Shown: positions 13,728 to 14,372 of the stretch, piece by piece
Numbering within the stretch: position 1 is the first letter of the stretch
How the letters are laid out: each line of letters starts with the position of its first letter
Assembly (NCBI GenBank): GCA_949293255.1
Contig: CASFCL010000001.1
Span: 92,105 to 156,104, forward strand
Direction of reading: 5' to 3'
Length of the DNA stretch: 64,000 bases
From: an uncultured bacterium
GTDB lineage: Bacteria > Bacillota_I > Bacilli_A > RFN20 > CAG-826
Notes under the pieces: model-generated
The model's input: the letters and a program-made list of their open reading frames with translations, nothing else
What the model was told of the DNA's origin: nothing
Database searches by the model: none
Made by a program: the position numbers and the translations under genes

Positions 13728-14372
13728 ATGAAAAAAACACATTATTTATTTATTTTAGCATCAATGCCCTTATTGCTTGTTGGATGTGGCCCAACAATTT
13801 ATGAATCAAATACAATTTTTTGCAAAGCAATTGATAACGAAACACGAATTGAGTTAGATTTTCCGGTTACTATTCTTTATGATCCTCGAGGGGGAGATGT
13901 TACTTTTAAATTTCATGAAGAAGATACAATTGAAGAATTTGAACAATTTTTAGATTCCTCAAAAAATATACAATATGAAAAAAGAGAAGGATATTTTGAA
14001 GGAAAAGTAAATCGTTTTAATTATCTACTTACAATTAATAACGAAGATTTTATTGATTACGCACTAATAGAAGTTCCGATTGATTATAAAAATGAAGGAT
14101 GTTTAATGTTTAACTGTGCCTATTATTATAACGGAATTTACTGTCTAGTCCCATATCCTTTAATTAAGTCGTGGGAAAATGTTTACTCTTTTTTTGATAA
14201 TGAAGAAACTGATTTTGAAACAGATTATTCTTATTACGATTTTAAAGAATTTTATTATCAAACTAGACAATTAAATATTTCTTTTAATGATGAAGAGGAA
14301 ACATTTACTATTGCAAATATGTTTGAGTTAAGCATTAAAGAAAATAAAGTTATTAGGACACATATAAATTAA
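13728..14372 (+). CDS. Lipoprotein of unknown function, translationally coupled to the C10 protease; candidate cognate protease inhibitor or immunity protein
   Basis: Signal peptide with lipobox (LLLVGC, Cys20). The ATG lies 1 nt after the protease stop. No recognisable catalytic motifs were found. The protein is rich in Tyr, Phe, Asp and Glu. Confidence 0.55.
   Translation: MKKTHYLFILASMPLLLVGCGPTIYESNTIFCKAIDNETRIELDFPVTILYDPRGGDVTFKFHEEDTIEEFEQFLDSSKNIQYEKREGYFEGKVNRFNYLLTINNEDFIDYALIEVPIDYKNEGCLMFNCAYYYNGIYCLVPYPLIKSWENVYSFFDNEETDFETDYSYYDFKEFYYQTRQLNISFNDEEETFTIANMFELSIKENKVIRTHIN

What the first reader, a model, noticed from the sequence alone, without database searches (positions are those of the whole stretch)
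13728..14372. Lipoprotein encoded 1 nt after the protease stop: a candidate novel membrane-anchored C10 protease inhibitor or immunity protein
Papain-fold secreted proteases are often encoded with a cognate inhibitor: SpeB with Spi, staphopains with staphostatins, and Bacteroides Bfp C10 proteases with Bfi lipoprotein inhibitors. Here the ATG of a 214-aa lipobox protein (LLLVGC) lies 1 nt after the protease TAA, which implies coupled, stoichiometric expression. The mature part has no match to anything I recognise. It would be a new inhibitor family if the function holds.
Basis: inference. Interest (0 to 1): 0.6.

Follow-up and report, generated by a model that had tools for sequence, protein, structure and literature searches.

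The report
Lipoprotein partner of a secreted cysteine peptidase
A small surface lipoprotein with a previously undescribed predicted fold is encoded right after a secreted papain-like protease in many gut bacteria, so the two almost certainly work together, most plausibly with the lipoprotein guarding the cell against its own protease, although that role is untested.

Summary
A 214-aa ORF (13728-14372, +) starts 1 nt after the TAA of a 347-aa peptidase gene. It has a canonical lipoprotein signal peptide (lipobox LVGC, Cys20).

- The upstream enzyme is a clan-CA Cys/His peptidase of NCBIfam NF045837. It does not reach Pfam's C10 threshold.
- The lipoprotein looked like an orphan: one self-hit by word search and two weak relatives in 1.84 billion proteins.
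- Walking from the peptidase side showed a fast-evolving family (16-29% identity). It occupies the next-gene position in 11 of 12 peptidase lineages, in unrelated genomic contexts, usually within 12 nt of the stop codon.
- Three more lineages keep the lipoprotein beside a decayed peptidase, and one has no peptidase trace.
- The one peptidase lineage without the lipoprotein carries a frameshift after its signal peptide.

AlphaFold2 with an 18-sequence alignment gives a confident model (pLDDT 88.5). It has no significant match in the PDB, including staphostatins, lipocalins and cystatins. The family profile shows no similarity to the peptidase's own pro-region.

Dedicated partner: about 0.85. 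Inhibitor or self-protection role: about 0.4. The main rival is a private foldase or docking factor.

The parts
12632..12660 (+). Promoter-like site (TTGATA-17-TATATT with TG extension) upstream of the peptidase gene. Tentative.
   Evidence: Promoter-like hits are not enriched over shuffles, so this is a guess.
12672..12678 (+). Shine-Dalgarno-like GAGGTGA, 4 nt before the peptidase ATG
   Evidence: Read from the sequence.
12683..13726 (+). Secreted papain-like (clan CA) cysteine peptidase precursor, 347 aa. It has a signal peptide, a pro-region of about 150 aa and a catalytic domain with Cys179 and His295.
   Evidence: NF045837 at 51 bits against a cut-off of 45. All 11 family members hit it. 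Cys179 and His295 are invariant. Hits to Pfam C39_2, C10 and C47 are only weak.
13727..13727 (+). Single-base intercistronic spacer (TAA-T-ATG). There is no Shine-Dalgarno sequence for the second gene, so translation is probably coupled.
   Evidence: Spacing runs from a 4-nt overlap to 12 nt in most lineages.
13728..14372 (+). Lipoprotein gene, 214 aa: the finding itself. It belongs to an unnamed, fast-evolving family of peptidase-linked lipoproteins.
   Evidence: AF2 model with pLDDT 88.5.
13728..13787 (+). Lipoprotein signal peptide ending in the lipobox L-V-G-C. The Cys20 codon is 13785-13787.
   Evidence: Read from the sequence. The Cys is invariant in the 12-sequence alignment A7.
14481..14510 (+). 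Intrinsic-terminator-like hairpin plus T-run that ends the two-gene operon
12341..12522 (+). Upstream copy of a direct repeat of about 180 nt that brackets the cassette. It contains the terminator of the preceding UPF0154 gene.
14468..14652 (+). Downstream copy of the same repeat (about 85% identical). It contains the operon's terminator.

Best explanation
The ORF encodes a lipid-anchored surface protein that is the dedicated partner of the secreted clan-CA cysteine peptidase encoded just upstream.

The two genes are transcribed as one bicistronic mRNA (about 12632 to 14510). The second gene is translated by termination-reinitiation coupling (TAA-T-ATG, no Shine-Dalgarno sequence).

After export, the peptidase zymogen is released by signal peptidase I. 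The lipoprotein is acylated on Cys20 and stays on the outer face of the membrane.

Most likely the lipoprotein binds the peptidase there and blocks or sequesters it, so that the producer's own surface proteins are spared. That would make it an extracytoplasmic self-protection ('immunity') inhibitor. It would be analogous in logic to Bfi/Bti, staphostatins and Spi, but built on an unrelated, so far undescribed predicted fold.

Shown: gene reality, lipobox, operon anatomy, conserved pairing, a confident model with no significant match to solved structures.

Inferred: binding, inhibition, topology.
For: 1. Conserved synteny in variable contexts.
- A family lipoprotein is the next gene after the peptidase in the window and L001, L009, L013, L016/L024, L017/L019, L021/L025, L028, L029-31, L032 and L033.
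- In L010 it follows one intervening membrane protein.
- Flanking genes differ in every lineage.
- Homology is backed by leave-one-out HMM E-values from 1e-7 to 1e-57.

2. Conserved tight spacing, from a 4-nt overlap to 12 nt in most lineages, and no Shine-Dalgarno sequence in the window.

3. Membrane anchoring is conserved. The lipobox Cys is invariant in 12 sequences. The probable member P0068 seems to have an N-terminal transmembrane anchor instead.

4. Decay pattern.
- Lipoprotein genes persist beside destroyed peptidase genes: L007 keeps only the last 18 codons, L020 carries an N-terminal deletion or fusion, and L023 keeps 33 codons.
- One lineage (L002) has the lipoprotein alone.
- dN/dS between the L004 and L007 lipoproteins is 0.25.
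- The only peptidase lineage without a lipoprotein (L011/12/18/27) has a frameshift between the signal peptide and the pro-region.
- Retained 'orphan' protectors, and no intact exported protease without a protector, is what an inhibitor or immunity model predicts.

5. Precedent. Papain-like bacterial proteases are repeatedly co-transcribed with adjacent inhibitors. Some of these are predicted lipoproteins lying 4-5 bp after the protease stop codon (PMC2873492, PMC3462683).
Against: - The confident AF2 model (pLDDT 88.5) matches no known protease inhibitor: no staphostatin, lipocalin, cystatin or chagasin. The best PDB hit is DcrB at E=0.03 with TM 0.23-0.29.
- The family profile has no similarity to the peptidase's pro-region, so it is not Spi-like.
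- The mature protein (195 aa) is about twice the size of Bfi or staphostatins.
- The peptidase already carries a pro-region of about 150 aa that could provide latency.
- The decay pattern rests on few lineages. L020 is a very recent deletion. In L009 the peptidase looks intact while the lipoprotein start is out of frame.
- Peptidase genes elsewhere in the 'orphan' genomes could not be excluded.
- No binding or activity data exist.
Confidence: 0.4

Rival explanations
1. Private foldase, maturation or docking factor. The lipoprotein acts as a membrane-anchored steric chaperone or tether. It folds, activates or retains the exported peptidase at the cell surface. Comparable cases are the Lif foldase encoded after its lipase, or the PrtM lipoprotein needed for the lactococcal PrtP proteinase (both from established knowledge).
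For: - The same synteny, coupling and membrane-anchor evidence applies.
- The peptidase has no anchor of its own and an almost invariant C-terminal tail, DNxFxNP(V/I)GSMYNMNY, that could be a docking peptide.
- The peptidase lineage lacking the lipoprotein is itself decaying, as expected if the enzyme is useless without its helper.
- The weak top fold hits (DcrB, LpqN, Mtc28, EagT6, PsbP) are envelope lipoproteins or chaperones rather than inhibitors.
Against: - A private helper should be lost once its client is gone. Yet intact lipoprotein genes persist beside dead or absent peptidase genes (L002, L007, L023), with dN/dS of 0.25.
- There is no PPIase, PrsA or Lif domain.
- The fold hits are not significant.
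Confidence: 0.3
2. Co-operating surface protein with its own function. The lipoprotein binds a host or dietary ligand, or a substrate, and the peptidase acts on what it captures. This is the logic of the mycoplasma MIB-MIP capture-and-cleave pair. Alternatively it is simply a variable surface antigen sharing the operon.
For: - It survives without the adjacent peptidase.
- It diverges very fast (16-29% identity against 39-60% for the peptidase), as is typical of exposed surface proteins.
- The peptidase belongs to a family model named from mycoplasmas (NF045837). A mycoplasma cysteine protease, CysP, cleaves IgG (PMC8593674). No link between CysP and NF045837 was established here.
Against: - The strict next-gene position and coupling in 11 lineages suggest a closer dependence than mere co-operation.
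- There is no similarity to MIB or to any known binding domain.
- No ligand can be proposed.
Confidence: 0.2
3. Chance adjacency or a non-functional ORF.
For: The word-based search found only a self-hit, and single-sequence AF2 failed with pLDDT 38.
Against: - Family membership at E=1e-17 to 1e-29.
- Conserved position in 11 lineages.
- dN/dS of 0.25.
- A confident fold once homologues are aligned.
Confidence: 0.02

Closest known systems
Bacteroides Bfp/Bfi and Btp/Bti pairs (C10 proteases with adjacent predicted staphostatin-like inhibitors; PMC2873492, PMC3462683)
   Same: - Both occur in gut bacteria.
- Both have an exported papain-like cysteine protease zymogen with a small exported protein encoded a few bases after its stop codon (btiA 5 bp, btiB 4 bp; here 1 nt).
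- Several Bfi and Bti proteins are predicted lipoproteins.
- In both, the proposed role is to protect the envelope from the cell's own protease.
- In both, the inhibitor function is predicted and has not been shown biochemically.
   Different: - Bfi and Bti are 116-138 aa and resemble staphostatins. This protein is 195 aa when mature, has no sequence match to staphostatin chains in the PDB and no lipocalin-like fold match.
- The protease here is not a Pfam C10 member.
- The hosts are monoderm or Mollicutes-like Bacillota, so the protein sits on the cell surface and not in a periplasm.
Staphopain/staphostatin (C47; scpA-scpB, sspB-sspC)
   Same: - The protease gene is followed by a co-transcribed specific partner.
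- The nearest solved structure to the peptidase by sequence is a staphopain-type thiol protease. It aligns at the Cys and His motifs, but the match is not significant (8oig, E=0.48).
   Different: - Staphostatins are cytoplasmic eight-stranded barrels of about 105-110 aa without a signal peptide (established knowledge; PMC3462683).
- This protein is exported, lipid-anchored, larger and has a different predicted fold.
SpeB/Spi
   Same: An inhibitor gene lies next to and is co-transcribed with a papain-like protease gene (PMC2873492).
   Different: Spi is an analogue of the SpeB propeptide. Here a profile-profile comparison of the lipoprotein family with the peptidase family, pro-region included, finds nothing.
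Lif lipase-specific foldases and the PrtM maturase of PrtP (established knowledge)
   Same: A membrane-anchored helper is encoded in the same gene cluster as a secreted hydrolase and is needed only for that enzyme.
   Different: There is no Lif or PrsA/PPIase domain. Lipoprotein genes here persist after the enzyme gene is lost.

Membership tests
Bacterial lipoproteins (Lgt/Lsp substrates) | N-terminal signal peptide with a basic n-region, a hydrophobic h-region and the lipobox [LVI][ASTVI][GAS]C | tested here: met
   MKK-THYLFILASMPLL-LVGC, with Cys20. The Cys is invariant in the 12-sequence alignment A7. Lipoboxes are listed.
Staphostatin / Bfi / Bti-type inhibitors | Encoded next to a papain-like cysteine protease gene and expressed with it | tested here: met
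   1-nt spacer, no terminator between the genes, and a terminator after the second gene. The adjacency is conserved in 11 lineages. Co-transcription itself is inferred.
Staphostatin / Bfi / Bti-type inhibitors | Small (about 105-140 aa) eight-stranded lipocalin-like beta-barrel | tested here: not met
Staphostatin / Bfi / Bti-type inhibitors | Detectable sequence relationship to staphostatins | tested here: not met
   phmmer and profile hmmsearch against all PDB chains at E<=10 return no staphostatin.
Staphostatin / Bfi / Bti-type inhibitors | Binds and inhibits the cognate protease | not testable with these tools
   This needs a complex prediction or biochemistry.
Spi-type (propeptide-mimic) inhibitors | Homology to the pro-region of the cognate protease | tested here: not met
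   hhalign of A5 against A4 gives probability 0.1% with 1 aligned column.
Peptidase C10 (SpeB/streptopain family), for the upstream gene | Match to Pfam PF01640 at or above its gathering score | tested here: not met
   The window protein has no C10 hit. Only 2 of 11 family members hit it, best E=4e-4. C39_2 is hit by 7 of 11 and C47 by 1 of 11, all weakly. No SpeB or interpain chain appears in the PDB profile search.
Peptidase C10 (SpeB/streptopain family), for the upstream gene | Papain-like Cys...His catalytic dyad behind a signal peptide and a pro-region | tested here: met
   Cys179 (GTCGY) and His295 (NHAV) are invariant, and N-x-G-W follows. About 150 residues precede the catalytic domain. 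These features are shared by all of clan CA and so are not specific to C10.
NCBIfam NF045837 (Mplas_Cys_pep, putative cysteine peptidase), for the upstream gene | Score above the curated cut-off of 45 bits | tested here: met
   51 bits, E=1.8e-13. All 11 family members match.
Lif / PrsA-PrtM foldases | Lipase-chaperone or parvulin PPIase domain | tested here: not met
   No Pfam or NCBIfam domain in any family member.

The most novel reading that the evidence does not exclude
The lipoprotein founds a new structural class of membrane-anchored cysteine-protease inhibitors that doubles as transferable 'immunity'. Under this reading, gut Bacillota secrete NF045837-type peptidases that damage the exposed surface proteins of neighbours. 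Cells that have lost or never had the peptidase keep or acquire the AT-rich lipoprotein gene alone as orphan immunity, as in L002, L007 and L023. The pair would then be a protease-based interbacterial antagonism module rather than a host-directed or nutritional enzyme with a safety catch.
Probability: 0.12. Interest if true: 0.75.

Novelty: new variant of a known kind. Interest (0 to 1): 0.5.

Why it matters
Pairing a secreted papain-like protease with a dedicated partner is a known theme. This partner family, however, has no name, no domain annotation and no recognisable fold, and ordinary homology searches miss it. It was recovered only through gene position.

It now has about 15 lineages, a confident structural model and a clear two-gene cassette that moves between gut Bacillota. 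If it is an inhibitor, it adds a new fold to the short list of bacterial cysteine-protease inhibitors. It would also be a surface-exposed, lipid-anchored example in monoderm or wall-less bacteria.

If it is a foldase or tether, it explains how an anchorless protease is handled at the surface. Either way, it gives a handle on an uncharacterised protease family that is widespread in human and animal gut metagenomes.

Tried and rejected
- Direct homology searches with the lipoprotein. The word-indexed search gave only a self-hit. Exhaustive phmmer over 1.84 billion representatives gave P0002, the fragment P0004 and one repeat-protein artefact, P0003. A 3-sequence profile added only P0005. The family was recovered by position instead.
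- Single-sequence AF2 gave pLDDT 38 and was useless.
This was solved by looking the sequences up as collection members.
- The staphostatin or lipocalin idea was rejected.
- The Spi or propeptide-mimic idea was rejected.
- Phage or defence origin: no PHROG hit and only a noise-level PADLOC hit. There are no relatives in viral contigs, phage records or plasmids.
- Rfam on 12000-15600 gave nothing credible for the repeat or the intergenic regions.
- Charge complementarity: the lipoproteins are uniformly acidic (pI 4.2-5.4), but the peptidase catalytic domains range from pI 4.7 to 8.3, so this is uninformative.
- A nucleotide-level element in the conserved peptidase 3' end was considered and rejected. 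Synonymous changes are frequent there, so the conservation is at the protein level.
- The lipoprotein alignment was too divergent for a pattern scan of viral contigs.
- A link between NF045837 and the mycoplasma IgG protease CysP could not be tested, because no CysP sequence was at hand.

Full report
**1. Observation**

The window holds an ORF at 13728-14372 (+) of 214 aa. The preceding ORF, 12683-13726, ends in TAA. One base (T, 13727) separates it from the ATG.

The N-terminus MKKTHYLFILASMPLLLVGCGP is a textbook lipoprotein signal peptide with lipobox L-V-G-C and Cys20.

- The first gene has a GAGGTGA Shine-Dalgarno sequence 4 nt before its ATG. The second gene has none.
- No terminator-like site lies between the genes. 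A strong one follows at 14481-14510.
- Terminator-like sites are enriched in this region (11 found against 0.6 expected).
- Promoter-like sites are not enriched (26 against 24.7), so the promoter at 12632-12660 is only a guess.

The anatomy is that of a bicistronic, probably translationally coupled operon.

**2. The upstream enzyme**

The 347-aa protein passes the curated cut-off of NCBIfam NF045837, 'Mplas_Cys_pep, putative cysteine peptidase' (51 bits against 45). So do all ten homologues recovered.

- Pfam gives only sub-threshold hits: C39_2 in 7 of 11 members, C10 in 2 of 11 (best E=4e-4) and C47 in 1 of 11.
- The closest solved structure by sequence is a staphopain-type thiol protease at a non-significant E=0.48. 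It aligns exactly at the Cys and His motifs.
- The family alignment shows an N-terminal signal peptide without a lipobox, a pro-region of about 150 residues, invariant Cys179 (GTCGY) and His295 (NHAV), an N-x-G-W motif, and a strikingly invariant C-terminal tail DNxFxNP(V/I)GSMYNMNY.

It is therefore an exported clan-CA zymogen of its own family. 'C10' is a reasonable guess from motifs but is not met as a membership test.

**3. The lipoprotein looked like an orphan but is not**

- Word-indexed search found only a 99% identical copy.
- Exhaustive phmmer over 1.84 billion representatives found P0002 (28% identity, E=1e-10), a fragment P0004 and a repeat-protein artefact.
- A 3-sequence profile added P0005.

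Their contexts were the first clue.

- In L004/5/6 a truncated, frameshifted remnant of the peptidase (residues 211-347, 53% identity) ends 3 nt before the lipoprotein gene, which is also frameshifted.
- In L007 only the last 18 codons of the peptidase survive (FIFANPIGSMYNMNY*) in front of an intact lipoprotein gene.
- In L002 there is no trace of a peptidase.

**4. Walking from the peptidase side**

I collected loci through the peptidase homologues, their contigs, one genome scan and one metagenome scan. The gene following the peptidase is, again and again, a lipobox protein of 207-239 aa with the C-terminal motif Y-x-x-x-K-x-(F/I)-Y...Q-K-E-I-x-Y-D-D.

Homology was tested, not assumed.

- Leave-one-out profiles recover every member at E between 1e-7 and 1e-57.
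- The exception is the L023 protein. hhalign supports it at 90.9% probability and E=1e-6 over 161 columns. I treat it as a probable member only.

Tally of lipoprotein lineages (15):

| Situation | Lineages |
|---|---|
| Directly after a full-length peptidase gene (11) | window/L001, L009, L010 (one multi-pass membrane protein between them), L013, L016/24, L017/19, L021/25, L028, L029-31, L032, L033 |
| Next to a peptidase remnant (3) | L004 group, L007, L023 |
| No peptidase trace (1) | L002 |

- Of 12 peptidase lineages, only one lacks the lipoprotein (L011/12/18/27, where an ABC-FtsX transporter follows). In that lineage the peptidase carries a frameshift between its signal peptide and its pro-region. 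The collection's truncated 257-aa gene call for it groups 12 member sequences, and five contigs carrying it were read.
- Flanking genes differ in every lineage.
- The cassette is AT-richer than its host flanks, by up to 20 points (L002: 31% against 51%).
- In the window, the cassette's composition matches the host (27% against 28.5%).

**5. Structure**

With the homologues registered as collection members, an 18-sequence alignment raised AF2 confidence from pLDDT 38 to 88.5, with pTM 0.85.

- The model has about 15 beta-strands and two helices (mature-protein numbering 49-58 and 150-158).
- The invariant Y150, K154 and Y157 (mature numbering) lie on one face of the second helix. Together with the L-x-P motif (121-123), this is a conserved patch that could be a core or a binding site (inference).
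- Foldseek against the PDB finds nothing significant. The best hit is DcrB (E=0.03, TM 0.23-0.29). The next hits (LpqN, Mtc28, PsbP-like, EagT6) are envelope lipoproteins or chaperones at noise level.
- No staphostatin or chagasin appears among the 50 best matches listed. The only cystatin-like fold (a monellin) and the lipocalins score at noise level.
- Profile-profile comparison with the peptidase family, pro-region included, is negative.

The specific structural ideas, a staphostatin-like barrel and a Spi-like propeptide mimic, are not supported.

**6. Mechanism**

What is shown: a real lipoprotein, an operon with coupling-type spacing, conserved pairing in variable contexts, and a conserved membrane anchor.

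What must be inferred is what the partner does. I favour an extracytoplasmic self-protection inhibitor (confidence about 0.4).

- The precedent is strong for papain-like bacterial proteases: Spi, the staphostatins, and the predicted lipoproteins Bfi and Bti lying 4-5 bp after the protease stop codon (PMC2873492, PMC3462683).
- The decay pattern fits. Lipoprotein genes outlive peptidase genes (L002, L007, L023), with dN/dS of 0.25 between the L004 and L007 lipoproteins.
- The only peptidase without a partner has lost its export signal.

The main rival (about 0.3) is a private foldase, maturase or tether, as with Lif or PrtM. It explains the coupling and the anchorless peptidase with its invariant tail. 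It does not explain why the partner persists after the enzyme is gone. A co-operating surface binder or variable antigen (about 0.2) remains possible.

Caveats:
- The lineages are few.
- L020 is a very recent deletion of L028 and says nothing about selection.
- In L009 the peptidase looks intact while the lipoprotein start is out of frame at an A7 run.
- Peptidase genes elsewhere in the 'orphan' genomes could not be checked.

**7. Comparison and novelty**

In logic and gene layout the closest systems are Bacteroides Bfp/Bfi and Btp/Bti. In family terms it belongs to none of the known inhibitor families: the size, fold and sequence tests were not met.

The lipoprotein family has no Pfam, NCBIfam, PHROG or PADLOC model. 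Where sources name it at all, it is 'hypothetical protein'.

I rate it a new variant of a known kind. The theme of a protease with a dedicated adjacent partner is familiar. It is carried out here by a new protein family with a predicted fold that matches no solved structure, in Mollicutes-like and other gut Bacillota.

**8. Host context**

The window is a 28% GC stretch of housekeeping genes, including dnaG, rpoD, ispH, ispG, efp, plsY, parE/parC, relA, lon, tig and uvrC. Its SecDF best matches the mycoplasma-type model. It is read with the standard bacterial code.

Relatives of the cassette come from gut MAGs labelled Faecalibacillus, 'Bacillales UBA4694', Bacillota, Clostridia and others.

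Noticed in passing
window 12341-12522 and 14468-14652: A direct repeat of about 180 nt (about 85% identical, spacing 2128 nt) brackets the whole two-gene cassette. Each copy starts with the same terminator hairpin GAGGGGGATGATT(T)CCC. There are only two copies in the 64 kb. It looks like a duplication of the original intergenic region between the UPF0154 gene and plsY, as a Campbell-type (single-crossover) insertion of the cassette would leave. The sister contig L001 ends about 420 nt after the lipoprotein stop codon, that is, beyond the region of the second repeat copy.
   Followed up: partly
L009 4999-5040; L017 about 3890-3930; L018 about 3860-3935: Frameshifts sit at or near the very start of cassette genes in other lineages. 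In L009 the lipoprotein ATG (1 nt after TGA) is followed by an A7 run and is out of frame with the lipobox. In L017 the peptidase ATG is out of frame, and one extra base in the adjacent T-run would restore it. In L018 the peptidase signal peptide is in a different frame from the pro-region. This could be phase variation by slipped-strand mispairing, early decay, or homopolymer assembly error.
   Followed up: partly
window 13675-13726 (peptidase C-terminus); remnants at L007 7941-7994 and L023 4001-4099: The last 16 residues or so of the peptidase, DNxFxNP(V/I)GSMYNMNY, are nearly invariant across a family that is otherwise 39-60% identical. They are the part that survives in deleted remnants. 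Synonymous changes are common, so the constraint is on the protein. Their role (fold element, or docking tail for the lipoprotein?) is unknown.
   Followed up: partly
L010 5079-5732: In one lineage a multi-pass membrane protein of 213-217 aa with no Pfam hit is inserted between the peptidase and the lipoprotein. Its stop codon is again followed by one base and then the lipoprotein ATG.
   Followed up: no
L011/L012/L018/L027, immediately after the peptidase gene: In the one peptidase lineage without the lipoprotein, the next gene is a 945-aa fused ABC ATPase and FtsX-type permease (MacB-like), 42 nt downstream.
   Followed up: no
L002, L004, L007, L018, L021 against their flanks: The cassette, or the lipoprotein gene alone, is 10-20 GC points below the surrounding genome in hosts of about 50% GC. 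In the window it matches the host composition. This suggests horizontal spread out of AT-rich, Mollicutes-like donors.
   Followed up: partly
L020 3300-4459 against L028 3-2494: In L020 a deletion has fused an upstream gene for a large repeat protein to the C-terminal half of the peptidase, removing the catalytic Cys. The near-identical L028 has both genes intact. The upstream protein may be a beta-helix protein, but that was judged by eye and not tested. This is a snapshot of very recent peptidase loss with the lipoprotein gene untouched.
   Followed up: partly
window 40507-43473 (-): A 988-aa ORF has no Pfam hit at E<=1e-5. Its best NCBIfam match is the mycoplasma-type SecDF model NF046001 (133.7 bits, far below the 500-bit cut-off). 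It is a highly diverged SecDF-like protein with an extra 360 residues or so at the N-terminus.
   Followed up: partly
window 10476-10889 (+): The 137-aa ORF listed mechanically here overlaps the ispG gene on the opposite strand. Only its last 53 codons or so (about 10728-10889) correspond to a called gene, ribosomal protein L33 (L001 7000-7161).
   Followed up: no
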